Shown piece by piece: positions 17,554 to 30,832 of a stretch of 64,000 nt of DNA. Numbering within the stretch: position 1 is the stretch's first letter; every line of letters begins with the position of its first letter. A program made the translations under genes and the position numbers. The notes under the pieces are model-generated. The model was given only the letters and a program-made list of their open reading frames with translations. It was not told the origin of the DNA and did not search any database. The stretch lies in sequence record PZ445430.1, one strand, 5' to 3'. Origin of the DNA: a phage.

Positions 17554-17561
17554 AAATTGAT

Positions 17562-17917: not shown

Positions 17918-18449
17918 AGAATCAGATAACTCGGGCTTATACCGGATAAGCATTCGCTGCTGTAGTACATACTATGACGGTTCAGGAGGTACGCCTCCTG
18001 ATCAGTATTAGGTTAGAATCGAAACAGCTAAACCACGAGGAAACCTGACGGCCTCAACCAAACTCGGAACTCGGGATCACTGCCTAGTGTGTACCCCGTT
18101 TAACCTGAGACTAGGCATCCAGCTTCGCATCGAAAATCGGAGGTGCGATTCTAACAGACCGCGTGAATATGAGAGTGGGAAACGCTGACATGAGAGATGT
18201 CACTAATGGTGCCCAATAGTACAGGTAATTCGCGATAATTCCTGTTGAGCGGCAGCAGTAGGCTGGGAGTCATGACCTAAGCCTAACCGAGTTCTTCACA
18301 TACGGAGAACATAACCACAAAGTCACCCTGACTTAAACTGGAAGATATTGTCTGACGGAAGGGCTGCAGAGCTTAATCTGAGGGGGCTGACCCTACCTAC
18401 CGTCGGGTATCTTTAAGAGCTTTTATAAGAGTTCTTAAAAATACCTAAA

Positions 18450-18524
18450 CGGGGTGTAGTCTAAGGGATAGGCAGGAGTCTTCTAAATTCCTTTATGCAG
18501 GTTCGAATCCTGTCACCTCGGCCA
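18450..18524 (+). tRNA. tRNA-Arg(TCT)
   Basis: Manual cloverleaf; anticodon loop CTTCTAA; CCA encoded. Confidence 0.7.
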
Positions 18525-22116: not shown

Positions 22117-22124
22117 AATTTCAC

Positions 22125-22167: not shown

Positions 22168-22261
22168 GGAAGATTAACCCTAATGGTAAGGGAGCTGTTT
22201 GCTAAACAGCCAGTAGCTGTGGAGACACGGTGTGCCAGTTCGAATCTGGCATCTTCCTCCA
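22168..22261 (+). tRNA. tRNA-Ser(GCT)
   Basis: Acceptor ggaagat/atcttcc; anticodon arm gctgt-TTGCTAA-acagc; long variable arm; CCA encoded. Confidence 0.75.
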
Positions 22262-22266
22262 GATTT

Positions 22267-22344
22267 GGTTCTCAAGCTCATTTGGTATGAGCCGTCGCCT
22301 CATAAGCGAAAGGTAGGTAGGTTCGAATCCTCCGGGAGCCACCA
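22267..22344 (+). tRNA. tRNA(CAT), Met or Ile-lysidine
   Basis: T-loop TTCGAAT; anticodon loop CTCATAA; CCA encoded. Confidence 0.65.
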
Positions 22345-22361
22345 ATTAATTAGGAGACTAT

Positions 22362-22547
22362 ATGTCACGCTTTCGAGAAATTGCTCAAGAGCTAGAAGAA
22401 TGTATGTGTACTGAATGTTGGGGTTCTGGCACTCAAAATGATGCTGAACCTGGGGACATTTTCTATAACGAATGGGAATGTCCTACCTGTAAAGGTTCTG
22501 GCATTAACCCTAATTATGCAATTTCTTTTGATATTGAGCGAGGCTAA
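22362..22547 (+). CDS. small Cys-rich (zinc-ribbon-like) protein
   Basis: AGGAG RBS; CxxC..CxxC pattern. Confidence 0.5.
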   Translation: MSRFREIAQELEECMCTECWGSGTQNDAEPGDIFYNEWECPTCKGSGINPNYAISFDIERG

Positions 22548-22548
22548 A

Positions 22549-22887
22549 ATGGATATTTTTACAACTCCGGCAGTCAACCTTTTAGGTGTAGGTCTGTTCC
22601 AAGCTACCATCTATCGTATTGATGATACCACAGATGTAGTAACGTTCATTGTACCAGAGTTCTTCCTAGAAAAGTTCTTTGAAGAGTTTGAGCAGTTTCG
22701 TGAAGAACACAATGCTCATTCCGATATGGAAGATCTAGCAGCTATGTTCCCTGCGGTTTACGGCTATATCTTTGAAGGTAATGGCCTAGATCTTAATAAA
22801 TCTGAACTCGTTGAACTTAACTGGGGCATCAATTTTGAAGTTGGCTCTCCATTCCCTCGATATTTCCAGGGTTTAGAGATTCGCTAA
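22549..22887 (+). CDS. hypothetical protein
   Basis: Internal ATG of track ORF 22438..22887 with GAGG RBS. Confidence 0.5.
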   Translation: MDIFTTPAVNLLGVGLFQATIYRIDDTTDVVTFIVPEFFLEKFFEEFEQFREEHNAHSDMEDLAAMFPAVYGYIFEGNGLDLNKSELVELNWGINFEVGSPFPRYFQGLEIR

Positions 22888-22895
22888 GATTACAT

Positions 22896-22972
22896 GGGGG
22901 TGTAATCGAATTGGCATAGGTACTGGACTTAAAATTCAGGTTTTGTGGGTTCGAATCCCACCACCCCTACCA
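22896..22972 (+). tRNA. tRNA-Leu(TAA), short type-I-like
   Basis: Acceptor gggggtg/cacccct; anticodon arm ctgga-CTTAAAA-ttcag; CCA encoded. Confidence 0.55.
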
Positions 22973-22987
22973 AATTAAGGAAATAAA

Positions 22988-23131
22988 ATGAAAGCTATTA
23001 AGAAAGCACTGCGTAAATTTATGTACTGTCGTTTTCATAGCATCAAGGCTTCAACTAATGGTACGACTTACGATCGCTATGATCCTAAGTTTGGCTTACA
23101 CTCTAAACAACTGGAGAAAACAAATGGCTAA
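22988..23131 (+). CDS. small hypothetical protein (47 aa)
   Basis: AAGGAAA RBS. Confidence 0.3.
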   Translation: MKAIKKALRKFMYCRFHSIKASTNGTTYDRYDPKFGLHSKQLEKTNG

Positions 23132-23330
23132 TCCTGAAATTACGGCACAACGCTTTATGCTGAAAGGAATTATTGCTGAAGCAGGCATGACAGAAGAAGT
23201 TGCAGATTTTCAAAAGCAATTCCTCAATATTCTCACTCAAGCCAAAGAGCTAGGAGAGAAAGAACATGGCGCGGCTATTATGGCAATCACATTGGTTGGG
23301 CTTGATCTGGCTGAAGAATCAGGAGTTTAA
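23124..23330 (+). CDS. hypothetical protein
   Basis: Internal ATG of track ORF 23058..23330 with GGAGAAAA RBS. Confidence 0.45.
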   Translation: MANPEITAQRFMLKGIIAEAGMTEEVADFQKQFLNILTQAKELGEKEHGAAIMAITLVGLDLAEESGV

Positions 23331-23360
23331 CTCCTCCAAGCAGAAATTTTAAAAATGTAC

Positions 23361-23390
23361 TTGCTTTTTACTTAAGATTTCTGCTATAAT
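23361..23390 (+). promoter_or_regulatory. early promoter (TTGCTT-18-TATAAT)
   Basis: -35 at 23361-23366, -10 at 23385-23390. Confidence 0.55.
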
Positions 23391-23419
23391 AGTTATATAA
23401 GTTGATGAGAGGAATCAGA

Positions 23420-23692
23420 ATGTTAAAACGTTTTGCAGCAACTGGTATTGAAAGCTCAGTATGTAAATCCTGGGGTGGTTGGGAAGGTGAGATCGAGTGG
23501 CTTTATTTCTACAATGTAGAACTTCTTCCAGAGATCAAAGCTCAATGTATTGAGGCTGGTATGGCTCCTGATGCTACGGCTGATGTTGAAATCAGCATGA
23601 ATAAGCTAGAGGGTCGAGTAGTCACTGTTACTGATGAAGGTGAAGAGGTATTCGAACTTCCATTCACTTTGAAAGTCACTCCTGGCTTCTAG
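23420..23692 (+). CDS. hypothetical protein
   Basis: ORF with GAGAGG RBS. Confidence 0.5.
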   Translation: MLKRFAATGIESSVCKSWGGWEGEIEWLYFYNVELLPEIKAQCIEAGMAPDATADVEISMNKLEGRVVTVTDEGEEVFELPFTLKVTPGF

Positions 23693-23731
23693 TAACTGAT
23701 ACAGCACTGAGCAAGTTCTTTAAAATCTTAC

Positions 23732-23760
23732 TTGCTCAGTCCTTCAAAACTTGATATAAT
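23732..23760 (+). promoter_or_regulatory. early promoter (TTGCTC-17-TATAAT) ahead of tRNA block
   Basis: -35 at 23732-23737, -10 at 23755-23760. Confidence 0.55.
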
Positions 23761-23885
23761 AGTTATCTAATTTGGAAAACATATCTGAATGAGAAGTAAC
23801 TAAGCGAGTTGCTTTTAGGGGTAAAGTCAGGATAGCCTGAAATATTCCACCTTGAGTTTAACCGACTTACTTTTCATTCAAATAT

Positions 23886-23966
23886 GGGGGATTGGCTCAG
23901 TGGCGACGGCGCCTGGCTGTAGACCGGGTATATCACGCGGAGGTTCGAGTCCTCCATCTCCCACCA
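23886..23966 (+). tRNA. tRNA-Tyr(GTA)
   Basis: Acceptor gggggat/atctccc; anticodon arm cctgg-CTGTAGA-ccggg; T-loop TTCGAGT; CCA encoded. Confidence 0.7.
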
Positions 23967-23974
23967 AAATTAAT

Positions 23975-24049
23975 GCACCTATCGTCTAATGGTTAGGACA
24001 TCAGGATTTCAATCTGAGAATCGGAGTTCAATTCTCCGTGGGTGTGCCA
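23975..24049 (+). tRNA. tRNA-Glu(TTC)
   Basis: Anticodon loop ATTTCAA; T-loop TTCAATT; CCA encoded. Confidence 0.65.
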
Positions 24050-24058
24050 ATTAATAAT

Positions 24059-24129
24059 TGGGGTACGCATAGGTTGCTAGTGGGCCTCCAAAACCCATGA
24101 AAAGGTTTCGAATACCTTTACCCCTGCCA
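24059..24129 (+). tRNA. tRNA-Trp(CCA)
   Basis: Anticodon loop CTCCAAA; short with mismatched first acceptor pair; CCA encoded. Confidence 0.5.
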
Positions 24130-24135
24130 ATATTT

Positions 24136-24210
24136 GCACCTTTAGCTGAGATGGATTAGCGCTTGCCTGAAGAGCTTGAGAGGTTCGTTCAATTCGAACA
24201 GGGTGCACCA
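24136..24210 (+). tRNA. tRNA-Phe(GAA)
   Basis: D-stem gctg/tagc; anticodon loop CTGAAGA with two U-U mismatches in stem; CCA encoded. Confidence 0.55.
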
Positions 24211-24227
24211 ATTTGAAGGAGATGCTG

Positions 24228-24500
24228 ATGCATCCTGAAAACTTCTTTATATACTGTACTAGTCTTTTGCTTAAACGCCGGATTAATAAAGTATATCACT
24301 ACAGAGCTAGTCAACAGCCTTATGTTTATGATTCTAGTGGAGATCATATTCCACTTGAGCAACTAGGGACTGATTATATGGTTTTGAAGCACTTTAATGA
24401 GGCGAAGATCTCTAGCGTTCATAACCGACAAAACTCTAAAACGTGGTGGCATAAGAAGCGTAAGAAAGGCATCAAATTTCTTAAAAATGTAGTTGCTTAA
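24228..24500 (+). CDS. hypothetical basic protein
   Basis: ATG 6 nt after AAGGAG; 3' end overlaps -35 of next promoter. Confidence 0.4.
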   Translation: MHPENFFIYCTSLLLKRRINKVYHYRASQQPYVYDSSGDHIPLEQLGTDYMVLKHFNEAKISSVHNRQNSKTWWHKKRKKGIKFLKNVVA

Positions 24501-24521
24501 ATCCTTAAAGTTCTGTATAAT
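24493..24521 (+). promoter_or_regulatory. early promoter (TTGCTT-17-TATAAT)
   Basis: -35 at 24493-24498, -10 at 24516-24521. Confidence 0.55.
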
Positions 24522-24549
24522 TATTACATAAATTGAACTGGAGAACTAG

Positions 24550-24738
24550 ATGAAAGCACCTAAACCGAAATTAGTTAAGTTCGACTGCTGTGATACTGAA
24601 ATCTTATTTACTAAGTTTGGTGAATTTAAGATGTGTGAATGTGGAACATGTGGTTACGATCATGGTGATGGATATTATTGCAGAACCCTAGGGCCTTCTG
24701 AACTAATCCACTTCTCATGGCCGGAAAGTAAAGAATAA
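24550..24738 (+). CDS. small Cys-rich protein
   Basis: GGAG RBS; multiple Cys pairs. Confidence 0.5.
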   Translation: MKAPKPKLVKFDCCDTEILFTKFGEFKMCECGTCGYDHGDGYYCRTLGPSELIHFSWPESKE

Positions 24739-24740
24739 TA

Positions 24741-24816
24741 CGACCGTTGGCTGAATGGCTTAGGCGGAGGCCTGCAAAACCTCCTTATGTGAGTTCGAAT
24801 CTCATGCGGTCGTCCA
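24741..24816 (+). tRNA. tRNA-Cys(GCA)
   Basis: Acceptor cgaccgt/gcggtcg; anticodon loop CTGCAAA; CCA encoded. Confidence 0.65.
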
Positions 24817-24968
24817 ATTTGCTGAAAGAATTGTTAAATCAATTCAGGCACGCGTAGGAACACTGCCTCAGTAATTGAAAGATGAGGCACGGTTTGGAGA
24901 GGTATGCCGCTACACGCTACGGTGCTAACTCCGTCTAGGTGAAAATCCTAGTCAGCAATATAAATTTA

Positions 24969-25054
24969 GGGTCGTTGGCTGAACGGTTTAAGCGCCGGAC
25001 TGTTAATCCGTATCCGCAAGGATAAAGTAGGTTCAACTCCTACACGGCCCGCCA
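24969..25054 (+). tRNA. tRNA-Asn(GTT) candidate with extra 15-nt arm
   Basis: Acceptor gggtcgt/acggccc; anticodon loop CTGTTAA; extra hairpin atcc-gcaa-ggat; CCA encoded. Confidence 0.5.
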
Positions 25055-25081
25055 ATTTCACTAACAACTGAGGAAATAGAT

Positions 25082-25267
25082 ATGACAACTCGTGCAATTG
25101 CTCTACTAGAAGCTGATCGTGATAATCTGATTAATAATATTAAGGTTCGTGGTAATATTATTAAGGCTCTGAAAGCTGAACTTCTTGAAGAACTTCAAGG
25201 TCAAGTAGAGCGTCGTGAAGCTCTAAAAGAGGTTGAGGAAGCTATCGAAAAACTCAAAACTGAGTAA
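25082..25267 (+). CDS. hypothetical coiled-coil protein
   Basis: ORF with GAGGAAA RBS. Confidence 0.5.
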   Translation: MTTRAIALLEADRDNLINNIKVRGNIIKALKAELLEELQGQVERREALKEVEEAIEKLKTE

Positions 25268-25275
25268 ACAAATTA

Positions 25276-25352
25276 TGCGATCGGGGCTGGCTTGGTAATG
25301 GTACTCCCCTGTCACGGGAGAGAATGTGGGTTCGAATCCCATCGGTCGCGCC
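25276..25352 (+). tRNA. tRNA-Asp(GTC)
   Basis: Acceptor gcgatcg/cggtcgc; anticodon arm ctccc-CTGTCAC-gggag; CCA encoded. Confidence 0.75.
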
Positions 25353-25429
25353 AATTTTTGCAGGACGCTGGTATAGATAACCACCGCGTGGGAAGTGTCT
25401 ATATTTAGAGCACTGCAAAACATAATAAT

Positions 25430-25505
25430 ACATCCATAGCTCAATGGTTAGAGCTACCGCCTCTTAAGCGGAGGGTTCTAGGTTCAAGTCCTAGTGGGTG
25501 TACCA
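25430..25505 (+). tRNA. tRNA-Lys(CTT)
   Basis: D-stem gctc/gagc; anticodon loop CTCTTAA; T-loop TTCAAGT; CCA encoded. Confidence 0.6.
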
Positions 25506-25587
25506 AACATCAGAGCAGCGTGATGTACTGCAAAGACCCAAAGTCCGGGGTGGACTTCTTGATTCAAAGGAGCAGGCATTAATTATC

Positions 25588-25709
25588 ATTCTAGCGTGGT
25601 GGAGAGGGGACACCAGCTTGCCGAGGGTAGAAGCTCGTTCGATTCGAGTGAAAGAATGGTTCTCGTAAATCCGCACAAGTGATAGCAGGTTCAAGTCCTG
25701 CCTAGATTG
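25588..25709 (+). ncRNA. degenerate tRNA-like element (about 120 nt)
   Basis: T-arm gcagg-TTCAAGT-cctgc and second T-loop-like ctcg-TTCGATT-cgag; pairable acceptor 122 nt apart; no CCA. Confidence 0.25.
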
Positions 25710-25718
25710 ACTTATTAT

Positions 25719-25792
25719 GCGTTCGTAGTTAAAAGGTATAATTTTTGGTTGCCAACCAGAAGTTGAGGGTTCGATTCCCTCCGACCGCACCA
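25719..25792 (+). tRNA. tRNA-Gly(GCC)
   Basis: Anticodon arm tttgg-TTGCCAA-ccaga; T-loop TTCGATT; CCA encoded. Confidence 0.65.
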
Positions 25793-26040
25793 AATTTAGG
25801 TTTCTGCTTCCTAGAGAACTGACTCCTAGATAAACAAGGCGATGAGTTTCCGGCCGGTTCTAGTCGCTGAAAATCCTCCCGACCAGGTAGGTGTAAGTAA
25901 ACGAAAGTTTACTTATTAAGTAAGTCCGACACATCGGCGGGTGTGTTCTAGTACTTAAAGAAGGTCTCGCAAACTTTCTCGCTAGCATGAGTTCATAGCT
26001 CGGTGACTTACCTAATAAGTAAATTTATTAAAAAATGTAG

Positions 26041-26069
26041 TTGCTATTTAGCTTAATTCTCTGTATAAT
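26041..26069 (+). promoter_or_regulatory. early promoter (TTGCTA-17-TATAAT)
   Basis: -35 at 26041-26046, -10 at 26064-26069. Confidence 0.6.
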
Positions 26070-26101
26070 ATATTTTATAAAGTGAGTTAACAAAGAATAT
26101 T

Positions 26102-26179
26102 CTCCGTGTAGCTCAGTTTGGCCAGAGCGTTTCGTTTGGGGCGATAGGGTCGGGGGTTCAAATCCTCCCACGGAGACCA
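26102..26179 (+). tRNA. tRNA-Pro(TGG)
   Basis: Acceptor ctccgtg/cacggag; anticodon loop TTTGGGG; CCA encoded. Confidence 0.65.
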
Positions 26180-26185
26180 AACAAT

Positions 26186-26263
26186 TGCGGGTTAGATCTC
26201 TGGTAGAGATCGCTAGTCTCATAAGCTAGAAAGAGGTAGGTTCGATTCCTACACCCGCTTCCA
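26186..26263 (+). tRNA. tRNA(CAT), Met or Ile-lysidine
   Basis: D-stem gatc/gatc; anticodon arm ctagt-CTCATAA-gctag; CCA encoded. Confidence 0.65.
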
Positions 26264-26284
26264 ATTTAATAGAAGGATTTCGAA

Positions 26285-26449
26285 ATGAAATTATTTCGTT
26301 TAAAAGTAAGTGATCTACGTTCTAGCAAAGATCGTAAGAAGTATCCACTAGCTCACTATGGTAAAGATGAAAACGAAGTGATGGCGGAATTTGGTATTAA
26401 TCATCCTTACTTGAAAGTCTACTCTATTAAAGAAGTATACATGTATTAA
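26285..26449 (+). CDS. small hypothetical protein (54 aa)
   Basis: AGAAGGA RBS; lies between tRNA genes. Confidence 0.35.
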   Translation: MKLFRLKVSDLRSSKDRKKYPLAHYGKDENEVMAEFGINHPYLKVYSIKEVYMY

Positions 26450-26451
26450 AT

Positions 26452-26529
26452 TGACCGTTAACTCAACTGGATAAGAGTACCGAGCTTTTACCTCGTAGGT
26501 TCTGGGTTCGAATCCCAGACGGTCAACCA
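26452..26529 (+). tRNA. tRNA-Lys(TTT)
   Basis: Acceptor tgaccgt/acggtca; D-stem actc/gagt; anticodon loop CTTTTAC; CCA encoded. Confidence 0.65.
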
Positions 26530-26546
26530 ATTTAAAGGAATTTGTT

Positions 26547-26864
26547 ATGAATATTAACAAAGTTCTAGAAACAATATCAGAAATGTCTGGTAGAGCTGGA
26601 AAACGCTTTACTGAACTATGCATTAAAAATCAAAAAGTACCAGAACATCAATGTCATTATTGTCGAGACTGTGAACAATACCATGAAATGTGTATGGTTG
26701 AAGATTGGGTCTGGGATCAGATAAGAAAAGAGCAACCCAAAGATATTGTTCTATGTTTTACTTGTATGGAACGACGTTTAGGACGTAAAATTACGCTCAA
26801 AGATCTTAAACATGTTCCCTGTAACGCTCCTTACTTCATTGGCTTTAGAATGGAGAGATTTTAA
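26547..26864 (+). CDS. Cys-rich hypothetical protein
   Basis: AAAGGAA RBS; CHYCRDC and CFTC motifs. Confidence 0.5.
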   Translation: MNINKVLETISEMSGRAGKRFTELCIKNQKVPEHQCHYCRDCEQYHEMCMVEDWVWDQIRKEQPKDIVLCFTCMERRLGRKITLKDLKHVPCNAPYFIGFRMERF

Positions 26865-26997
26865 TGACTATCTGGTTTTATTTAATGAAGCAGAAAATAA
26901 GAGATTCCTATGTATTCTCTGCTGACTTTACAATAGGTATGTTTATAGCAGGTTTCTGTGAATTTGTAGTTGAAGCCTACATCATAGGAAGTCTTTT

Positions 26998-27071
26998 GCT
27001 CGGTTAGTTTAATGGGAGAACCCCGTCTTTACACGGCGGTTGCGATAGTTCGATTCTATCACCGAGTACCA
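26998..27071 (+). tRNA. tRNA-Val(TAC)
   Basis: Anticodon arm ccgtc-TTTACAC-ggcgg; T-loop TTCGATT; CCA encoded. Confidence 0.7.
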
Positions 27072-27096
27072 ATTAACTCAAAATAAGGAATTGCAA

Positions 27097-27450
27097 ATGC
27101 AATTATCAAGCAAGGTTCAAGGCTATTTCGGGCATGTAACAATGGAGTTCGCTATCTCTAAAGGTTGGGACTTCGAACAAGATCTAGCTGAATTCTACAA
27201 AGATATTGATCTGAATGTACCGTACATAGGACTCTCTACTGGTCAAGAGATCACAGAAGGCGATGTGTTCAAGGCAAGTCAAGGTGAGGTAACACCTAGT
27301 TTTGCCGAGTTCTGGTTAGGAATTACTCTGAAAGATGATGCACCGGATGGTGGTGTGGTTATGCAGAGTATGCACTCTGGAAGCTCTGATTACCTTTTCG
27401 TTAGTGACGTTAAGGAAATACAAGAAATCTGCAAAAATGTACTTGCTTGA
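27097..27450 (+). CDS. hypothetical protein
   Basis: AAGGAA RBS; 3' end overlaps -35 of next promoter. Confidence 0.5.
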   Translation: MQLSSKVQGYFGHVTMEFAISKGWDFEQDLAEFYKDIDLNVPYIGLSTGQEITEGDVFKASQGEVTPSFAEFWLGITLKDDAPDGGVVMQSMHSGSSDYLFVSDVKEIQEICKNVLA

Positions 27451-27471
27451 TGCTTAATTTCTTGTTATAAT
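27443..27471 (+). promoter_or_regulatory. early promoter (TTGCTT-17-TATAAT)
   Basis: -35 at 27443-27448, -10 at 27466-27471. Confidence 0.55.
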
Positions 27472-27734
27472 ATTTATATAAATCGATGAGGAGAAATCCT
27501 CATCAAAGTTCACTAAGGTATTAGCTCGACCTAGGACTGGCTGCCAACAAGCACAGTTGCAATTAGACCCCTAATGGCGGGGGGATACTTTGCAATAAGT
27601 TCTAGATTAGTCCACTAGATTCAGCGGCAACTGAATAGTGTATCGGGTTTGTGAAGAGCGGTTATCCTCTACTGGCTAATGTCTGAGGGTAATACGCACA
27701 CCGAGCTAATAGCCTTAGTAAACTTAAAGATTTT

Positions 27735-27808
27735 GGGGATATAGTTTAATGGTAGAACATCTGCCTTGCACGCAGAAGACGAGGGTTCAACTCCCTCTTT
27801 CTCCACCA
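27735..27808 (+). tRNA. tRNA-Ala(TGC)
   Basis: Anticodon arm tctgc-CTTGCAC-gcaga; T-loop TTCAACT; CCA encoded. Confidence 0.7.
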
Positions 27809-27813
27809 AATTC

Positions 27814-27889
27814 GGGGTCATAGGTTATTTGGTTAAACTTACTGCCTTGCAAGCAGTGGAACTCAGTTCAATTCTGAGTGACTCCACCA
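27814..27889 (+). tRNA. tRNA-Ala(TGC), second copy
   Basis: Anticodon arm actgc-CTTGCAA-gcagt; T-loop TTCAATT; CCA encoded. Confidence 0.6.
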
Positions 27890-27908
27890 AACAAATTAAG
27901 GAAATAAT

Positions 27909-28127
27909 ATGGTATTCTTAGTAGCCTCTGTAGTTCTTGCAGCTTTAGCACTAGCTATCTATTTTAGAACTGTTAAAGATTTAGCTAAAGAAAAGAAAAC
28001 TTTCTTTACTGATTATTCTTGGGGCGCTCCATATACTGTCCGCTTTATCAGCTTAGAAGCTATGCTGATAATGGTATTCAGTGGCGTAGGTTCCATTGTT
28101 GCGGGATTATTATTTATTTCTAACTAA
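27909..28127 (+). CDS. small membrane protein
   Basis: AAGGAAA RBS; two hydrophobic helices. Confidence 0.5.
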   Translation: MVFLVASVVLAALALAIYFRTVKDLAKEKKTFFTDYSWGAPYTVRFISLEAMLIMVFSGVGSIVAGLLFISN

Positions 28128-28134
28128 ATAAAAT

Positions 28135-28215
28135 GGGGATGTGGCGAAATTGGCAGACGCGCTAGATTTAGGTTCTAGTCTCCGGGTGTGGGTTCGAGTC
28201 CCTCCATCCCTACCA
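28135..28215 (+). tRNA. tRNA-Leu(TAG)
   Basis: Anticodon arm ctaga-TTTAGGT-tctag; 9-nt variable region; CCA encoded. Confidence 0.65.
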
Positions 28216-28389
28216 AACATTGGATTAACTCATGATGAAAACTCCTATAACTGATATCTGGTTAGCTGTTAATACGTTAACTAAAGAGTATGTGTTTATA
28301 GAGTATGGTCAGAGGTATGACCAAAAGATGTATAATCTCATACTTCCAGTATCCGCTAATGAAGTTTATGATTTAATCCTGAGATCTAC

Positions 28390-28482
28390 GGAAGAGCAAA
28401 TCGACTTGGTGACGAAAACCACTTGGAAAGTGGCTGACTTGTGAAAGCAGGCTTGAGAGTTCGAATCTCTCTTCTTCCGCCA
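28390..28482 (+). tRNA. tRNA-Ser(GGA)
   Basis: Acceptor ggaagag/ttcttcc; anticodon loop TTGGAAA; long variable arm; T-loop TTCGAAT; CCA encoded. Confidence 0.55.
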
Positions 28483-28496
28483 AACAAAATTTATAG

Positions 28497-28591
28497 GGTA
28501 GGTCAATCCAACGGCTGGCGCTGGACTCCGACTTGAAATCGGTTGATCGTAGTGATACGGTGTAAGGGTTCGATCCCCTTACCTACCCCCA
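28497..28591 (+). tRNA. tRNA-Ser(TGA)
   Basis: Acceptor ggtaggt/acctacc; anticodon loop CTTGAAA; long variable arm; CCA encoded. Confidence 0.6.
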
Positions 28592-28596
28592 AATCT

Positions 28597-28728
28597 TGAA
28601 GTATGCCGGAATCGGTAGACGGGGCTTCCTAAAGGGCGTAAGAGGAACATCCACTCCTCATAAGATACCCGAAAACGAGGCTGAGATAAATGGTCTATCT
28701 CGTGAAGGTTCAAGTCCTTCTGCTTCTT
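28597..28728 (+). ncRNA. tRNA-like element with Leu-type D-arm (about 130 nt)
   Basis: D-arm ccgg-AATCGGTAGAC-gggg, T-arm gaagg-TTCAAGT-ccttc, pairable acceptor; extra 45 nt internally; no CCA. Confidence 0.25.
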
Positions 28729-28906
28729 GATATTCAATGGCTCAAAGAGTAACGGTGCACCTTTCTAGAGAATTTTCTGGGCGAGAATCCAGAAGTAATC
28801 AACTAGTTGTTAGTGTGATGAGTTTCGGAGAGCCGCCACAATTGAAGTCTTTAGAATGGGTATCGCCCTTTAGCCCCTCCGAAAGGGATAACTAGAGATT
28901 TCAATT

Positions 28907-28983
28907 GTGGCTATATCATAATTGGTTAATGATCCTGATTGTGAATCAGGCCTATGTGGATTCGAATTCCACTAGCCACCCCA
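28907..28983 (+). tRNA. tRNA-His(GTG)
   Basis: Acceptor gtggcta/tagccac; anticodon arm cctga-TTGTGAA-tcagg; CCA encoded. Confidence 0.75.
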
Positions 28984-28989
28984 AATATT

Positions 28990-29064
28990 GCGTCCTTATT
29001 TCAATGGAAAGAATGTAAAGCTACGAACTTTACGATCGGGGTTCGATTCCCTGAGGATGCACCA
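28990..29064 (+). tRNA. tRNA-Arg(ACG)
   Basis: Anticodon arm taaag-CTACGAA-cttta; T-loop TTCGATT; CCA encoded. Confidence 0.75.
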
Positions 29065-29088
29065 ATTAACTTATATAGGAAATAAAAT

Positions 29089-29289
29089 ATGGCTGATTTC
29101 TGCAAAGAATGCTCTATCGATATGTGGGGCAAAGATACTGGTGATCTTTCTGGTCTGATTACAGAAGCCGAAGTTAAAGAAGGCTATGGTGCTGTTGTAA
29201 TCTGTGAAGGTTGTGGTATTATTCGTGTTGATCATAATGGTAAACGTCTAGAAGAACCAGATCCAATTGCCACGGTTCCTGTAGAATAA
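29089..29289 (+). CDS. small Cys-rich protein
   Basis: AGGAAA RBS; CKEC..CEGC. Confidence 0.5.
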   Translation: MADFCKECSIDMWGKDTGDLSGLITEAEVKEGYGAVVICEGCGIIRVDHNGKRLEEPDPIATVPVE

Positions 29290-29296
29290 AAATTAT

Positions 29297-29372
29297 TGGG
29301 ATGTAGATCAATTGGCAGATCGTCGGCCTCTGACTCCGAAGGTTCCACGTTCGATCCGTGGCATCCCAGCCA
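29297..29372 (+). tRNA. tRNA-Gln(CTG)
   Basis: D-stem gatc/gatc; anticodon loop CTCTGAC with C-U mismatch closing the stem; CCA encoded. Confidence 0.65.
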
Positions 29373-29378
29373 AATACT

Positions 29379-29454
29379 TGGAGAGTAGTGTAACGGTTAG
29401 CACAACGGCCTTTGACTCCGTTAATGGTAGGTTCGATTCCTCCTTCTCCAGCCA
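29379..29454 (+). tRNA. tRNA-Gln(TTG)
   Basis: Anticodon loop CTTTGAC with same C-U mismatch; CCA encoded. Confidence 0.65.
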
Positions 29455-29460
29455 ATTTAT

Positions 29461-29535
29461 GCGTGATTAGTTCAGTGGCTAGAATAACTGGCTTCCAACC
29501 AGTAGACACGAGTTCGACTCTCGTATCCCGCACCA
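29461..29535 (+). tRNA. tRNA-Gly(TCC)
   Basis: Anticodon arm actgg-CTTCCAA-ccagt; T-loop TTCGACT; CCA encoded. Confidence 0.7.
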
Positions 29536-29550
29536 ATTTAAGGAAACGTT

Positions 29551-29757
29551 ATGGACGTTTTTGAGTTTCGTAATAAAAACCCTAATAGGCGAGTTTTAAT
29601 TATTGGTGAAACATACCGAGCTTATGAGCAGGAAGACGGTTCGGTTTTATTAAATGATGAAAAGCAAGGCTATAGCTTTCATCCGGAAGAAACATATGAA
29701 GAATTTCGTACTAAGTTTCTTTTACCAGACTGGCTAGCAATAGCTGAGCAAAGATAA
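29551..29757 (+). CDS. hypothetical protein
   Basis: AAGGAAA RBS. Confidence 0.5.
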   Translation: MDVFEFRNKNPNRRVLIIGETYRAYEQEDGSVLLNDEKQGYSFHPEETYEEFRTKFLLPDWLAIAEQR

Positions 29758-29764
29758 CCCGAAG

Positions 29765-29923
29765 ATGGCTGATAATCTAAAGGTAGATAAACGAATGAAG
29801 CACGTTGAGGTTGAGTTGGGTGAAGAACGTTTAAAACTCTCCTTCGAATTCTTACAACAGTTGGCTATGACAGTAATGTCTGATAAGTCTCCTGTATTTG
29901 AAAAAGAAATTCCGTTGAAATAA
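29765..29923 (+). CDS. small hypothetical protein (52 aa)
   Basis: Short ORF, weak RBS. Confidence 0.3.
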   Translation: MADNLKVDKRMKHVEVELGEERLKLSFEFLQQLAMTVMSDKSPVFEKEIPLK

Positions 29924-29933
29924 CGGGTTTATT

Positions 29934-30008
29934 GCTCCTAAAGCATTGCTGGCGATGCAGTTGCCTTGTAAGCATCTGAACCGGGTTCGATTCCTGGTGG
30001 GAGCACCA
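29934..30008 (+). tRNA. tRNA-Thr(TGT)
   Basis: D-stem gcat/atgc; anticodon loop CTTGTAA; T-loop TTCGATT; CCA encoded. Confidence 0.65.
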
Positions 30009-30023
30009 AATTTAAAAATTCAT

Positions 30024-30052
30024 TTGCCTTCTCTCTTATTTCTTGTTATAAT
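30024..30052 (+). promoter_or_regulatory. early promoter (TTGCCT-17-TATAAT)
   Basis: -35 at 30024-30029, -10 at 30047-30052. Confidence 0.55.
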
Positions 30053-30082
30053 ATTTATATAAATTAATGAGAGGGAAACCAA

Positions 30083-30376
30083 ATGAAACGTTATCTTTCT
30101 GTCGTGTTCCAAACGGGTGGTCAACGCTACACTTACGAATTTCCTGAGTCTTGGAAAATAAAAGAAGGTGATCAAGTTGTTGTGCTAACACCTCGTGAAG
30201 GCTTCAAAGTAGTAACGGTTAAACAAGTATTTCCAAAAGATCACGAACCATCTAAGTCTATTCAGTACAAGATGATTCACGGTCTGGTACGAAAAGTACC
30301 TAGAACAGAAGTCGAAGTAGATAAAACTGGTGAAGCTAAATACCAGTATACCTCTTACTTAGACGAGTTGTTATAA
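30083..30376 (+). CDS. hypothetical protein
   Basis: GAGAGGGAAA RBS. Confidence 0.5.
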   Translation: MKRYLSVVFQTGGQRYTYEFPESWKIKEGDQVVVLTPREGFKVVTVKQVFPKDHEPSKSIQYKMIHGLVRKVPRTEVEVDKTGEAKYQYTSYLDELL

Positions 30377-30582
30377 TGAGAATTACTTTCACAGAAAAGA
30401 TTATGGGCAATGGTGTTATGATCATTACCGCATGGGATGGTAATCAGTGGTGTAGTGTTTCAGGTATTAAGCCTGAAGAACAAACACTAGAAAATATCTC
30501 AAAGATTAAGCGAAGAATGGCAGAACGTGCACGACTTCCAGGTGCGCCTAGAAATGGTAAACGTTCTGCAATTAAATGTTAA
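30376..30582 (+). CDS. hypothetical protein
   Basis: Coupled to upstream gene (ATGA overlap). Confidence 0.45.
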   Translation: MRITFTEKIMGNGVMIITAWDGNQWCSVSGIKPEEQTLENISKIKRRMAERARLPGAPRNGKRSAIKC

Positions 30583-30583
30583 T

Positions 30584-30660
30584 GCTTCGGTAGCTTAGCG
30601 ATCTAAAGCACTCGGCTGATAACCGAGAGATCGGGGGTTTAAATCCCTCCCGGAGTACCA
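30584..30660 (+). tRNA. tRNA-Ile(GAT)
   Basis: D-stem gctt/aagc; anticodon arm ctcgg-CTGATAA-ccgag; CCA encoded. Confidence 0.75.
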
Positions 30661-30756
30661 AATTTAGGAAGTAAGACTATGCGTCCAGGAAAGTTTAAAA
30701 AAGCTAATTGGTCTAAAGAGTATAAAGAATACTTACTTAGTCTAGTAAAACATAAT

Positions 30757-30832
30757 AGTTAGTTGGCAGAGAGGTTATGCACCTCCTTCATACGGAGCGA
30801 CTACAGTGGTTCAAATCCACTACTAACTACCA
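30757..30832 (+). tRNA. tRNA(CAT), third copy
   Basis: Acceptor agttagt/actaact; anticodon loop TTCATAC; T-arm agtgg-TTCAAAT-ccact; CCA encoded. Confidence 0.65.

What the first reader, a model, noticed from the sequence alone, without database searches (positions are those of the whole stretch)
22168..30832. About 30 tRNA genes covering all 20 amino acids, several non-canonical
Manual folding gives anticodons for every amino acid, with three CAT species and two each for Ser(+1), Leu, Lys, Gly, Ala, Arg and Gln. All encode CCA. Oddities: an Asn(GTT) candidate with an extra 15-nt hairpin arm, a type-I-length Leu(TAA), Phe(GAA) with two U-U mismatches in the anticodon stem, both Gln tRNAs sharing a C-U mismatch, and duplicated Ala(TGC). 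These could reflect adaptation or tRNA-targeting defence evasion.
Basis: seen in the sequence. Interest (0 to 1): 0.5.

Follow-up and report, generated by a model that had tools for sequence, protein, structure and literature searches.

The report
T5-like phage tRNA gene cluster
This is the well-known tRNA-rich region of a T5-like coliphage (the window is the published phage SuperGirl/Bas29): 30 tRNA genes for all 20 amino acids that keep phage translation running when host tRNAs are scarce or destroyed, so the cluster is ordinary, although one member (an Asn tRNA with an extra arm) belongs to an apparently undescribed virus-enriched tRNA shape.

Summary
The window is 100% identical to Escherichia phage SuperGirl (Bas29, Demerecviridae, Epseptimavirus).

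- **Count.** There are 29 tRNA genes in 22168-30832, plus Arg(TCT) at 18450-18524. That makes 30 genes covering all 20 amino acids, all on the + strand and all ending in an encoded CCA.
- **Automated calls.** Ser(GGA), Ser(TGA) and Trp(CCA) fall below default thresholds. Both Ser genes fold into clean cloverleaves. Trp matches T5's curated tRNA-Trp at 68 of 71 bases.
- **What it is.** This is the tRNA-rich region of T5-like phages, which has been studied for a long time. In T5 and close relatives, its tRNAs have been shown to rescue infection from tRNA-cleaving defences (PARIS, retron-Eco7, PrrC, P2 OLD). Codon usage also fits a supply role. As a finding it is already known.
- **Worth a second look.**
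  - The Asn tRNA has a class-II-like variable arm capped by a GNRA loop. That shape turned up in 12 of 99 distinct viral Asn tRNAs and in 0 of 78 cellular ones. I found no paper describing it.
  - The short-armed Leu(UAA) raises a charging question, because E. coli LeuRS failed to charge the one foreign type I tRNA-Leu tested.

The parts
18450..18524 (+). tRNA-Arg(TCT).
   Evidence: ARAGORN; Rfam 49.3 bits; annotated in the record
22168..22261 (+). tRNA-Ser(GCT), class II, with a 23-nt variable region
   Evidence: (50.2 bits)
22267..22344 (+). tRNA(CAT). It sits in the slot of T5 tRNA-Ile2(CAU), the lysidine type; the assignment rests on synteny only.
   Evidence: (40.0 bits)
22896..22972 (+). 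tRNA-Leu(TAA), 77 nt, with a 5-nt variable loop, a Leu-type 3-bp D stem and A73
   Evidence: (57.4 bits)
23886..23966 (+). tRNA-Tyr(GTA), 81 nt, with a shortened 10-nt variable region (88-91 nt in T5 and Eps7)
23975..24049 (+). tRNA-Glu(TTC)
   Evidence: 55.6 bits
24059..24129 (+). tRNA-Trp(CCA) of the T5 type, 71 nt. It has a 3-bp D stem with a 5-nt loop and U1.U72 and C31.A39 mismatches. It is not annotated in the SuperGirl record.
   Evidence: ARAGORN only at the 90% threshold; no Rfam hit even at E<=10; 68/71 identical to T5 tRNAW
24136..24210 (+). tRNA-Phe(GAA) with two U.U mismatches in the anticodon stem
   Evidence: (45.8 bits)
24741..24816 (+). tRNA-Cys(GCA), with C31.A39
   Evidence: (40.7 bits)
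24969..25054 (+). tRNA-Asn(GTT), 86 nt, with a class-II-like variable arm (4-bp stem, GCAA loop), a 3-bp D stem and G73
   Evidence: (54.7 bits)
25277..25353 (+). tRNA-Asp(GTC)
   Evidence: 46.8 bits
25430..25505 (+). tRNA-Lys(CTT)
   Evidence: 64.8 bits
25719..25792 (+). tRNA-Gly(GCC), with A73
   Evidence: (61.1 bits)
26102..26179 (+). tRNA-Pro(TGG)
   Evidence: 54.4 bits
26186..26263 (+). tRNA(CAT) in the slot of T5 initiator tRNA-fMet, with a U1.U72 mismatch and U73
   Evidence: (46.2 bits)
26452..26529 (+). tRNA-Lys(TTT). Its anticodon arm, CCGAG CT[TTT]AC CTCGT, differs from the host's at positions 38-41.
   Evidence: (60.6 bits)
26998..27071 (+). tRNA-Val(TAC)
   Evidence: 57.8 bits
27735..27808 (+). 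tRNA-Ala(TGC) copy 1. Among the 7 phages compared this allele is unique to SuperGirl; it has G3.U70.
   Evidence: (72.9 bits)
27814..27889 (+). tRNA-Ala(TGC) copy 2, identical to the Eps7 and bobsandoy allele, with G3.U70
   Evidence: (59.6 bits)
28135..28215 (+). tRNA-Leu(TAG), 81 nt, with a 9-nt variable region
   Evidence: (53.5 bits)
28390..28482 (+). tRNA-Ser(GGA), 93 nt, class II
   Evidence: annotated in the record; ARAGORN at the 90% threshold in the wrong register; clean cloverleaf at -25.2 kcal/mol; Rfam only tRNA-Sec at 26.5 bits, below threshold
28497..28591 (+). tRNA-Ser(TGA), 95 nt, class II. The allele differs from those of the relatives compared.
   Evidence: record; clean cloverleaf at -28.9 kcal/mol; Rfam tRNA-Sec 38.3 bits, below threshold
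28907..28983 (+). tRNA-His(GTG). The base at position -1 is T, so no G-1 is encoded.
   Evidence: (59.9 bits)
28990..29064 (+). tRNA-Arg(ACG)
   Evidence: 55.0 bits
29297..29372 (+). tRNA-Gln(CTG), with C31.U39 and C38
   Evidence: (56.4 bits)
29379..29454 (+). tRNA-Gln(TTG), with C31.U39 and C38
   Evidence: (50.0 bits)
29461..29535 (+). tRNA-Gly(TCC), with A73
   Evidence: (65.5 bits)
29934..30008 (+). tRNA-Thr(TGT). Its anticodon arm is identical to that of T5 tRNA-Thr(UGU).
   Evidence: (47.4 bits)
30584..30660 (+). tRNA-Ile(GAT)
   Evidence: 64.7 bits
30757..30832 (+). tRNA(CAT) in the slot of T5 elongator tRNA-Met
   Evidence: (49.6 bits)
25587..25711 (+). Homologue of T5 RNA2, which the T5 record calls a tRNA-like stable RNA. 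It contains ARAGORN's sub-threshold 'Ala(TGC)' fold, which lacks CCA.
   Evidence: blastn 89.6% over 125 nt
28595..28738 (+). Homologue of T5 RNA1, a tRNA-like stable RNA
   Evidence: blastn 82% over 145 nt; T-arm-like hairpin at 28704-28720
17791..18449 (+). Homologue of T5 RNAX, a stable RNA upstream of tRNA-Arg. It contains a marginal tRNA-like fold at 17846-17917.
   Evidence: blastn in three pieces, 79-88%; Rfam 29.3 bits
27519..27654 (+). Homologue of the T5 stable RNA RNA2H
   Evidence: blastn 77%
17550..17608 (+). Homologue of T5 early promoter P16-17
   Evidence: 91.5%; TTGCTA-17-TATAAT
23714..23789 (+). Homologue of T5 promoter P14a, about 100 nt upstream of tRNA-Tyr
   Evidence: 89.5% over 76 nt
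24483..24545 (+). Homologue of T5 promoter P14b
   Evidence: 88.9%
26031..26085 (+). Homologue of T5 promoter P13a, upstream of Pro and fMet
   Evidence: 94.5%; TTGCTA-17-TATAAT
27443..27497 (+). Homologue of T5 promoter P13b, upstream of RNA2H and the Ala genes
   Evidence: 96.4%
30004..30078 (+). Homologue of T5 promoter P11, downstream of Thr
   Evidence: 93.3% over 75 nt; TTGCCT-17-TATAAT with a TG extension

Best explanation
The region is the tRNA-rich region of a T5-like phage (Escherichia phage SuperGirl/Bas29).

**Layout.** Thirty co-oriented tRNA genes are interspersed with about 20 small conserved ORFs of unknown function and several tRNA-like stable-RNA genes.

**Expression (inferred).** The genes are transcribed early from a series of T5-type sigma-70 promoters as short polycistronic precursors, with spacers of only 5-9 nt inside sub-clusters. 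Host RNase P and 3' exonucleases process them, and because CCA is encoded no CCA addition is needed. Host synthetases charge them.

**Function.** They give the phage its own decoder for every amino acid. This does two things:
1. It tops up tRNAs for the A/U-ending codons that this 40% G+C genome uses more than the 51% G+C E. coli region compared.
2. It replaces host tRNAs that are cut by tRNA-targeting defence nucleases, or that stop being made once a T5-type phage degrades host DNA. The phage copies differ from the host's in the anticodon stem-loop, so such nucleases are expected to cut them poorly or not at all; this resistance has been shown for T5/Bas32 tRNAs only.

**What is shown and what is inferred.**
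- Shown here: the genes, their folds, their conservation, synteny with T5, promoter homology, divergence of the anticodon stems, and the codon bias.
- Shown in the literature for T5, SP15 and Bas32/33, but not for SuperGirl: rescue from PARIS, retron-Eco7, PrrC and OLD.
- Inferred: that SuperGirl's own alleles behave the same way.
For: **Identity and synteny.**
- 100% identity to SuperGirl over the 9 kb searched, with 29 tRNAs annotated in that record.
- The gene order is the same as in the curated T5 record: Ser-Ile2 ... Tyr-Glu-Trp-Phe ... Cys-Asn-Asp ... Pro-fMet-Lys-Val ... Ala-Leu-Ser-Ser ... His ... Gln-Gln-Gly-Thr-Ile-Met. That record notes that many of these T5 tRNAs work as amber suppressors after an anticodon change.
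- 573 phage records share the region.
- T5 promoters P16-17, P15a, P15c, P14a, P14b, P13a, P13b and P11 are conserved at 88-96% at syntenic positions.

**Divergence from the host.**
- Anticodon arms differ from E. coli's in most tRNAs compared.
- Lys(UUU) shows five distinct, fully compensated anticodon stems among 7 phages.
- Thr(UGU) is identical to T5's.

**Literature.**
- T5 Lys/Thr/Asn tRNAs neutralise PARIS.
- T5/SP15 Tyr neutralises retron-Eco7; a T5-like tRNA-rich region (TRR) is defined from 250 genomes.
- T5-like Thr(UGU) resists OLD, which also targets Gly(UCC), fMet, Val(UAC) and Pro(UGG); SuperGirl encodes all of these.

**Codon usage.** Codons cognate to the phage tRNAs are enriched relative to E. 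coli: CTA 5.8x, AGA 3.6x, GTA 2.5x, CCA 1.95x. The mean log2 ratio is +0.23 for cognate codons against -0.25 (wobble-read) and -0.29 (not read) for the rest.
Against: - No experiment has been done on SuperGirl itself.
- SuperGirl's Asn keeps the host's 3' anticodon-stem strand (U36AAUC|C41), so by sequence alone it is not an AriB escape variant.
- Phage tRNAs can themselves be targets: T5 Ala(UGC) is cut by a bacterial Schlafen.
- The codon effect is modest, and the set also covers codons with no bias.
- T5 deletion mutants lacking 16 of 23 tRNAs are viable in the laboratory, so the region is conditionally dispensable.
- Charging is uncertain for several members:
  - Trp fails all default detectors.
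  - His lacks an encoded G-1.
  - Both Gly have A73 where E. coli has U73.
  - Leu(UAA) lacks the long arm, and E. coli LeuRS failed to charge the one foreign type I tRNA-Leu tested, that of S. coelicolor.
Confidence: 0.8

Rival explanations
1. Codon-usage compensation alone. On this view the tRNAs exist only to match an AT-rich phage genome to a host tRNA pool tuned for GC-richer codons, and defence plays no part.
For: - The window is 39.9% G+C against 51.3% for the E. coli region compared.
- Codons cognate to the phage tRNAs are enriched (mean log2 ratio +0.23, against -0.25 and -0.29).
- The strongest cases are rare host codons: CTA, AGA and GTA.
- Most four-codon boxes are served by a U34 tRNA.
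Against: - The set covers all 20 amino acids, including codons with no bias (AAC, TAC, CAC and TTC have ratios of 0.86-1.14).
- Direct experiments show defence rescue by single T5 tRNAs.
- The PARIS paper notes that T5 tRNA and codon data do not directly support compensation.
- The hypervariable, fully compensated anticodon stems of Lys(UUU) are not explained by codon supply.
Confidence: 0.2
2. Self-sufficiency during host shut-off. T5-type phages degrade host DNA early, so host tRNA genes can no longer be transcribed. On this view the phage set simply maintains tRNA levels through the infection, whatever nucleases are present.
For: - A complete set for all 20 amino acids, driven by early promoters.
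- Host DNA degradation by T5 is described in the abstract listed.
- The eLife paper cites tRNA depletion on infection as a driver.
Against: - Mature tRNAs are stable over a roughly 40-minute cycle (general knowledge, not tested here).
- Deletion mutants of the region are viable.
- This view does not explain allele diversification concentrated in anticodon stems.
Confidence: 0.3
3. The odd members (Trp, Phe, both Gln, Asn, Leu(UAA)) are decaying or non-functional copies.
For: - Trp has no Rfam hit even at E<=10 and appears in ARAGORN only at a lowered threshold.
- The T5 record lists one Gln(CUG) as a pseudogene and several tRNA-like RNAs of unknown function.
- Other Epseptimaviruses carry a canonical 77-nt Trp in the same slot.
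Against: - Asn, Leu(UAA), Phe, both Gln and both Ala score 46-73 bits on RF00005, and all keep CCA.
- Leu(UAA) is identical in four phages. In KpGranit it is a fully compensated variant of the same short architecture.
- The Asn arm covaries between alleles and across 26 viral variants.
- The Phe and Gln mismatches are conserved across genera.
- Trp is 96% conserved with T5, and the one acceptor-stem change is G-C to G.U.
Confidence: 0.1
4. The long-armed 'Asn' tRNA has switched identity. With G1-C72, G2-C71, C11-G24, G73 and a long variable arm, SerRS charges it, so it reads AAY codons as Ser or acts as a decoy.
For: - SuperGirl's Asn has a 3-bp class-II-type D stem with C11-G24, G73, a GGG/CCC acceptor top and a 15-nt arm.
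- SerRS recognises the long arm and G73 and ignores the anticodon.
Against: - The AsnRS determinants are intact: the GUU anticodon and G73 (textbook identity set, recalled rather than tested here).
- Many other long-armed viral Asn tRNAs keep the Asn-type UCC...GGA acceptor stem of E. coli tRNA-Asn, which does not fit Ser identity.
- The arm stem is 3-5 bp, shorter than those of the phage's own Ser tRNAs (20-23 nt variable regions).
- Missense at every Asn codon would harm the phage.
Confidence: 0.05

Closest known systems
tRNA gene region of bacteriophage T5 (AY543070, about 28.0-40.9 kb), also called the 'tRNA-rich region' (TRR) of T5-like phages (Azam et al. 2024)
   Same: - Same virus family.
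- Same gene order and orientation.
- Same early promoters (88-96% identity).
- Same flanking genes.
- Homologues of the T5 stable RNAs RNA1, RNA2, RNA2H, RNAIV and RNAX.
- Identical His tRNA, identical Thr and Phe anticodon arms, and a Trp that is 96% identical.

   Different: - SuperGirl has 30 tRNAs, against 24 tRNA features in the T5 stretch examined (one of them marked a pseudogene).
- It adds Leu(TAA), Lys(CTT), Gly(GCC), Arg(ACG) and a second Ala.
- It has no HNH homing-endonuclease ORFs in the region.
- It carries different alleles of Asn (86 vs 78 nt), Tyr (81 vs 88), Leu(TAG) (81 vs 85), Lys(TTT), Ser(TGA), Gly(TCC) and Ile2.
Nuclease-resistant T5 tRNA-Lys(UUU), Thr(UGU) and Asn(GUU), which neutralise PARIS AriB (Burman et al. 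2024; PMC12409363)
   Same: - SuperGirl's Thr(UGU) anticodon arm is identical to T5's.
- SuperGirl's Lys(UUU) differs from the host's at positions 38-41, around the 40|41 cut site.
   Different: - The Lys allele is not the T5 allele (CUCGU vs ACCAU on the 3' strand).
- The Asn allele keeps the host sequence at the cut site and instead carries a long variable arm.
- Resistance has not been tested for any SuperGirl allele.
Class II bacterial tRNAs (Leu, Ser, Tyr, Sec) with a long variable arm
   Same: SuperGirl Asn has a 15-nt variable region forming a 4-bp hairpin, together with a 3-bp D stem, as class II tRNAs do.
   Different: - The anticodon (GUU) and discriminator (G73) are those of Asn, a class I family.
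- No cellular Asn tRNA in the sample had such an arm (0 of 78 distinct).
- Conversely, Leu(TAA) in this phage has lost the class II arm.
Type I tRNA-Leu of Streptomyces coelicolor and of human mitochondria (PMC6614811)
   Same: A tRNA-Leu with a short variable loop.
   Different: - The phage tRNA must be charged by E. coli LeuRS. That enzyme failed to charge the S. coelicolor type I tRNA-Leu and is described in the paper as charging only type II.
- The phage tRNA keeps an E. coli-like Leu D arm and A73.
tRNA clusters of other large virulent phages (T4, mycobacteriophage cluster C1, vibriophages)
   Same: The same idea: phage-encoded tRNAs whose anticodon-loop changes are predicted to evade anticodon nucleases (PMC10264068).
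   Different: Unrelated genomes and gene orders. T4 has only 8 tRNAs (from memory, not checked here).

Membership tests
T5-like (Markadamsvirinae) tRNA-rich region | The genome belongs to a T5-like phage. | tested here: met
   100% identity to Escherichia phage SuperGirl, Demerecviridae, Epseptimavirus
T5-like (Markadamsvirinae) tRNA-rich region | More than 20 co-oriented tRNA genes interspersed with small ORFs, in the same order and between the same flanking genes as in T5 | tested here: met
   30 tRNAs, all on the + strand. The order matches AY543070. The flanks are the conserved T5.080-like ORF next to tRNA-Arg(TCT) and the pyruvate-formate-lyase-like gene after tRNA-Met.
T5-like (Markadamsvirinae) tRNA-rich region | Driven by T5 early sigma-70 promoters | tested here: met
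   Eight annotated T5 promoters have homologues of 88-96% identity at syntenic positions. A generic promoter scan alone is not above chance: 26 found against 31.5 expected.
T5-like (Markadamsvirinae) tRNA-rich region | Conditionally dispensable, and protects against tRNA-targeting defences | not testable with these tools
   Shown for T5, SP15 and Bas32/33 in the literature, not for SuperGirl
Canonical tRNA (Rfam RF00005) | Score at or above the gathering threshold of 29 bits | tested here: met
   27 of the 30 pass at 40-73 bits. Ser(GGA), Ser(TGA) and Trp(CCA) do not. The two Ser genes fold as class II cloverleaves.
Canonical tRNA (Rfam RF00005) | Cloverleaf with a 7-bp acceptor stem, a 5-bp T stem, a 7-nt anticodon loop and a 3' CCA | tested here: met
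   All 30 end in CCA. The folds show isolated mismatches in Phe, the two Gln, Cys, Trp, fMet and Lys(TTT).
Class II (long-variable-arm) tRNA | A variable region of 10 nt or more that forms a stem-loop | tested here: met
   - Met by the three Ser (20-23 nt) and by Asn (15 nt, 4-bp stem, -3.7 kcal/mol, 0 of 200 shuffles as stable).
- Tyr (10 nt) and Leu(TAG) (9 nt) are borderline.
- Leu(TAA) (5 nt) does not meet it.
Class II (long-variable-arm) tRNA | Amino-acid family is Leu, Ser, Tyr or Sec | tested here: not met
   Not met for Asn: the anticodon is GTT and the discriminator is G73. So Asn has the class II shape but is not a member of a class II family.
AriB (PARIS)-resistant phage tRNA variants | Substitutions relative to the host at or next to the 40|41 cleavage site | tested here: inconclusive
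   - Lys(UUU): met. The sequence downstream of U36 is ACCUC, against AAUCA in the host.
- Thr(UGU): met (G39, against U39 in the host), and identical to T5.
- Asn(GUU): not met. It reads UAAUCC, as the host does.

AriB (PARIS)-resistant phage tRNA variants | Not cleaved by AriB, and rescues infection | not testable with these tools
   Needs cleavage and plating assays
tRNA-Sec (RF01852) | Gathering score of 47 bits and a TCA anticodon | tested here: not met
   The two Ser genes hit this model at 38.3 and 26.5 bits, and their anticodons are TGA and GGA.

The most novel reading that the evidence does not exclude
T5-like and many other virulent phages alter the architecture of their tRNAs, not only the anticodon-loop sequence.

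**The pattern.**
- They add a GNRA-capped, class-II-like variable arm to tRNAs of class I families. SuperGirl's Asn(GUU) is one case. In the viral contigs sampled it also occurs in Thr(UGU), Ile(UAU), Glu, Cys and Met.
- They remove or shorten the arm in class II families: Leu(UAA), Leu(UAG) and Tyr.

**The reading.** If these changes keep synthetase recognition while blocking defence nucleases that dock on the anticodon stem, variable region or D loop, they would be a structural route of tRNA immune evasion that has not been described. AriB, for example, cuts at 40|41, three to four nucleotides from where the arm emerges.

**Support.**
- 12 of 99 distinct viral Asn tRNAs carry the arm, against 0 of 78 cellular ones with the same anticodon arm (Fisher p = 0.0013).
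- The arm covaries.
- SuperGirl's Asn keeps the host sequence at the cut site.

**Status.** Untested. I found no paper describing it, but the searchable library is incomplete.
Probability: 0.25. Interest if true: 0.6.

Novelty: already known. Interest (0 to 1): 0.25.

Why it matters
**As a finding it confirms textbook and recent knowledge.** T5-like phages carry a near-complete tRNA set. This exact genome is public and annotated. The defence-evasion role of such tRNAs has been shown experimentally since 2023-24.

**Practical corrections.**
- The SuperGirl record lacks the T5-type tRNA-Trp at 24059-24129.
- The record probably annotates a spurious CDS (25498-25668) over a tRNA-like RNA.

**What could matter.**
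- Class-II-shaped Asn tRNAs look virus-enriched, and short-armed Leu tRNAs were common in the viral contigs sampled (no cellular comparison was made for Leu). If these shapes are evasion devices, they widen the known ways in which phage tRNAs escape immunity.
- They also pose concrete identity questions: how E. coli LeuRS charges a tRNA-Leu without the long arm, and how AsnRS tolerates an extra arm.

Tried and rejected
1. **ARAGORN at an 80% threshold** gave 44 calls. These included reverse-strand images of real tRNAs and folds with odd anticodons, and I rejected them as noise.
2. **Two sub-threshold tRNA-like folds** are not counted as tRNAs: 17845-17918 'Ser(ACT)' and 25585-25657 'Ala(TGC)'. 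They lack CCA and have acceptor-stem mismatches. They lie inside homologues of the T5 stable RNAs RNAX and RNA2.
3. **The tRNA-Sec hits for the two Ser genes** are rejected: they are below threshold and the anticodons are wrong.
4. **ARAGORN's register for Ser(GGA) and Ser(TGA)** is rejected in favour of the record's coordinates, which give perfect acceptor stems.
5. **The generic promoter and terminator scan** was not above chance, so I used homology to annotated T5 promoters instead.
6. **RNAalifold on a MAFFT alignment of 20 long-armed Asn tRNAs** did not recover the variable arm, because indels misalign it. I replaced it with per-sequence folding against shuffles and with counts of pair types anchored on the loop.
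7. **A second Arg gene inside the stated range** was looked for and not found.
8. **Homing endonucleases in SuperGirl's region** were looked for and not found. Of the 20 ORFs scanned, 18 match PHROG families of unknown function, one matches a family labelled 'anti-termination protein Q-like', and one matches none.
9. **Literature searches** for a long variable arm in phage tRNAs returned nothing relevant. No paper ties Bas29 to tRNA biology.

Full report
**What the window is.** A megablast of 22000-31000 against public phage genomes gives a 100% match over all 9001 bases to Escherichia phage SuperGirl (Bas29; MZ501105 / NC_105116; Demerecviridae, Markadamsvirinae, Epseptimavirus). A further 571 records, mostly T5-like phages of Salmonella, Escherichia and Klebsiella, share the region. 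Window coordinates equal record coordinates minus 47303. The record annotates 29 tRNAs in and near the region. Its tRNAs were predicted with tRNAscan-SE (BASEL paper, PMC8594841).

**Checking the observation.**
- ARAGORN at default settings reports 27 tRNAs in the whole window, all on the + strand. Of these, 26 lie in 22168-30832 and Arg(TCT) lies at 18450-18524.
- Rfam's tRNA model finds the same 27 at 40-73 bits, plus one marginal hit.
- The record adds Ser(GGA) 28390-28482 and Ser(TGA) 28497-28591.
  - Both fall below ARAGORN's default. In Rfam they reach only the tRNA-Sec model, below its threshold.
  - With the record's coordinates they fold into clean class II cloverleaves with perfect 7-bp acceptor stems, at -25.2 and -28.9 kcal/mol. 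ARAGORN's low-threshold calls were in the wrong register.
- Trp(CCA) at 24059-24129 appears only at a 90% ARAGORN threshold and has no Rfam hit at all.
  - It is nonetheless 68/71 identical to the tRNA-Trp curated in the T5 record AY543070.
  - It sits in the same slot, between Glu and Phe.
The one correction is that the second Arg gene lies outside the stated coordinates.
- All 30 end in an encoded CCA.

**The named oddities.** All are present.
- Phe has two U.U pairs (28.42 and 29.41) in its anticodon stem. The same allele is in T5, Spc35, bobsandoy and chee24, while Eps7 has a perfectly paired allele.
- Both Gln tRNAs have C31.U39 together with C32 and C38. This is conserved in five phages and, for Gln(UUG), in the Klebsiella phage KpGranit of another genus.
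- Leu(TAA) is 77 nt with a 5-nt variable loop.
  - It keeps a Leu-type 3-bp D stem with an 11-nt loop, and A73.
  - It is identical in four phages.
  - In KpGranit the same short architecture has every acceptor, anticodon-stem and T-stem pair changed in a compensated way. That argues for function.
- The two Ala(TGC) genes are divergent isodecoders, not a recent duplication: 52/76 identical, both with G3.U70. Copy 1 is unique to SuperGirl among the seven phages compared.
- Asn is 86 nt. Its 15-nt variable region folds as ATCC-GCAA-GGAT followed by AAA.

**What it is.** The gene order matches the T5 tRNA region gene for gene.
- That record was curated from decades of work. It names the three CAT genes by position as Ile2 (next to Ser GCU), fMet (next to Pro) and elongator Met (next to Ile GAU). 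I carry these assignments over by synteny only.
- The T5 record also annotates stable RNAs in the region, some of them tRNA-like. SuperGirl has homologues of five:
  - RNA2 at 25587-25711 (89.6%)
  - RNA1 at 28595-28738
  - RNA2H at 27519-27654
  - RNAIV at 25925-25976
  - RNAX at 17791-18449
- These homologues account for the sub-threshold tRNA-like folds at 25585-25657 and 17845-17918.
- Eight T5 early promoters are conserved at 88-96% at syntenic positions. One is P14a, about 100 nt upstream of tRNA-Tyr. A generic promoter scan on its own is not above chance.
- Of the 20 interspersed small ORFs scanned against PHROGs, 18 match families of unknown function and one matches a family labelled 'anti-termination protein Q-like'. 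ORF 25498-25668 matches none and overlaps the RNA2-like element. There are no homing endonucleases here, unlike in T5.

**How it most likely works.**
- Spacers of 5-9 nt within sub-clusters, together with the promoter pattern, indicate short polycistronic precursors processed by host enzymes.
- The literature gives direct evidence for function in close relatives:
  - T5 tRNA-Lys(UUU) is not cut by the PARIS nuclease AriB and rescues infection (PMC11464382).
  - Lys, Thr(UGU) and Asn(GUU) together are necessary and sufficient to suppress PARIS toxicity; AriB cuts between nt 40 and 41 (PMC12409363).
  - tRNA-Tyr of T5 and SP15, expressed from a strong promoter, rescues infection from retron-Eco7 PtuAB. 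The authors define a 'tRNA-rich region' across 250 T5-like genomes (PMC11555353).
  - P2 OLD cuts Thr(UGU), Gly(UCC), fMet, Val(UAC) and Pro(UGG), and Thr(UGU) from T5-like phages resists it.
  - In the other direction, a bacterial Schlafen cuts T5's own Ala(UGC).
- I fetched the E. coli K-12 tRNA genes and compared anticodon arms.
  - SuperGirl Lys(UUU) reads CCGAG CU[UUU]AC CUCGU, against the host's GUUGA CU[UUU]AA UCAAU.
  - The seven phages carry five distinct Lys stems, all fully compensated.
  - Thr(UGU) is identical to T5's and differs from the host's at position 39.
- Codon usage of long ORFs in the window, compared with a 49-kb E. coli region, shows enrichment of codons cognate to the phage tRNAs: CTA 5.8x, AGA 3.6x, GTA 2.5x, CCA 1.95x. 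The mean log2 ratio is +0.23, against -0.25 (wobble-read) and -0.29 (not read) for the rest.
- Both roles fit, and they are not exclusive: supply for an AT-rich genome, and replacement of host tRNAs lost to defence.

**Mosaicism.**
- tRNA alleles are shuffled among relatives:
  - Asn is 86 nt (SuperGirl, bobsandoy), 83 (Eps7, Spc35), 78 (T5, chee24) or 76 (KpGranit).
  - Tyr is 81, 87, 88 or 91 nt.
  - Leu(TAG) is 77, 81, 85 or 87 nt.
  - Trp is 71 or 77 nt.
- Against bobsandoy, its nearest relative among the phages compared in detail (about 97.7% identity in the initial search), the breaks in similarity fall at Asp, Lys(TTT) and Ser(TGA).

**The Asn arm, followed further.**
- SuperGirl's Asn keeps the host's 3' anticodon-stem strand (U36AAUC|C41, the AriB site), unlike T5's Asn. 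So if it evades anything, it does so through shape.
- Between the 86-nt and 83-nt alleles the arm changes from AUCC/GGAU to GUC/GAC, and anticodon-stem pair 28-42 changes from C-G to U-A.
- A pattern scan of IMG/VR that required 10-24 nt between the anticodon arm and the T stem returned 62 loci, holding 25 distinct long-armed Asn(GUU) tRNAs with varied acceptor stems.
- An unbiased scan for the anticodon arm alone (CGGACTGTTAATCCG, first 120 loci) gave 99 distinct viral Asn tRNAs, of which 12 are 78-86 nt without CCA.
- The same pattern in cellular genomes gave 136 genes and 78 distinct sequences, all 72-75 nt. Fisher p = 0.0013.
- Of 34 distinct long variable regions, 26 fold into hairpins of 3 bp or more.
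  - 19 of the 26 loops are GNRA.
  - The three pairs nearest the loop show 3, 6 and 4 pair types.
  - The layout is constant: 0-1 unpaired nt on the 5' side and 3-4 on the 3' side.
- In INPHARED, 587 records hold a full-length homologue. They include T4-like Klebsiella and Enterobacter phages.
- In the same viral loci, long arms also occur in Ile(UAU), Thr(UGU), Glu, Cys and Met, and 44 of 91 distinct Leu tRNAs are under 79 nt. This sample is biased, because about a third of the loci were selected for long-armed Asn.
- I found no paper that mentions this. The library is incomplete, so I claim only that I could not find it.

**Charging questions.**
- A paper on S. coelicolor reports that E. coli LeuRS could not leucylate that organism's type I tRNA-Leu, and describes it as charging only type II (PMC6614811). 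How the phage's short Leu(UAA) is charged is therefore open.
- From memory, not checked here: minimal-substrate work on E. coli LeuRS found the variable arm dispensable.
- tRNA-His has T at position -1 in six T5-like phages, so no G-1 is encoded.
- Both Gly tRNAs have A73 where E. coli has U73.
- The T5 record notes that several of the T5 homologues act as amber suppressors after an anticodon change, so at least those are charged in vivo.

**Verdict.** I score it low for novelty. I flag the class-II-shaped Asn and the short-armed Leu as the parts a specialist might want to test.

Noticed in passing
window 24969-25054; IMG/VR loci L011-L189: A class-II-like variable arm capped by a GNRA loop on tRNA-Asn(GUU) recurs in viral contigs: 12 of 99 distinct sequences, against 0 of 78 in cellular genomes with the same anticodon arm. 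587 phage records, including T4-like Klebsiella and Enterobacter phages, hold a full-length homologue. I found no literature on it.
   Followed up: partly
IMG/VR loci L011-L189 (for example L077, L095, L171 for Ile; L017, L093 for Thr): Other class I families also carry long variable arms in viral contigs: Ile(UAU) 10 of 56 (with a conserved CCAGAUUAGGG-type arm), Thr(UGU) 5 of 57, Glu 4 of 55, Cys 3 of 41 and Met 3 of 72. In addition, 44 of 91 distinct viral Leu tRNAs are shorter than 79 nt. The sample is biased towards contigs chosen for their Asn tRNAs.
   Followed up: no
window 28906-28983: tRNA-His has T, not G, at position -1, so the G-1:C73 pair that E. coli HisRS relies on is not encoded. 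The gene and its upstream base are identical in T5, Eps7, Spc35, bobsandoy and chee24.
   Followed up: partly
window 25719-25792 and 29461-29535: Both Gly tRNAs have discriminator A73, whereas E. coli Gly tRNAs and T5 Gly(UCC) have U73.
   Followed up: no
window 26186-26263: The tRNA in the fMet slot has a U1.U72 mismatch and U73. It lacks the three consecutive G-C pairs in the anticodon stem that are typical of bacterial initiators.
   Followed up: no
window 24059-24129: The public SuperGirl record has no tRNA-Trp, although this locus is 96% identical to T5's curated tRNA-Trp. Other Epseptimaviruses (Eps7, fuchur, TrudiGerster) carry a different, canonical 77-nt Trp allele in the same slot.
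   Followed up: yes
window 25498-25668: The annotated CDS bas29_0105 matches no PHROG family. It overlaps the 3' end of tRNA-Lys(CTT) and the homologue of T5's tRNA-like RNA2, so it is probably not a real gene.
   Followed up: partly
window 17791-18449, 25587-25711, 25925-25976, 27519-27654, 28595-28738: These are homologues of the T5 'stable RNAs of unknown function' (RNAX, RNA2, RNAIV, RNA2H, RNA1). None is annotated in the SuperGirl record, and two contain degenerate tRNA-like folds.
   Followed up: partly
window 25268-25424, 26439-26996, 28487-28549 compared with L008 (bobsandoy): Similarity to bobsandoy, the nearest relative among the phages compared in detail, breaks exactly at the tRNA genes Asp, Lys(TTT) and Ser(TGA). 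This suggests allele replacement at tRNA genes. From memory, T5 homing endonucleases cut within tRNA genes; I did not check this.
   Followed up: partly
window 19961-21713: Just upstream of the cluster the record annotates a nicotinamide-nucleotide adenylyltransferase and a PnuC-like NMN transporter, that is, phage-encoded NAD salvage genes.
   Followed up: no
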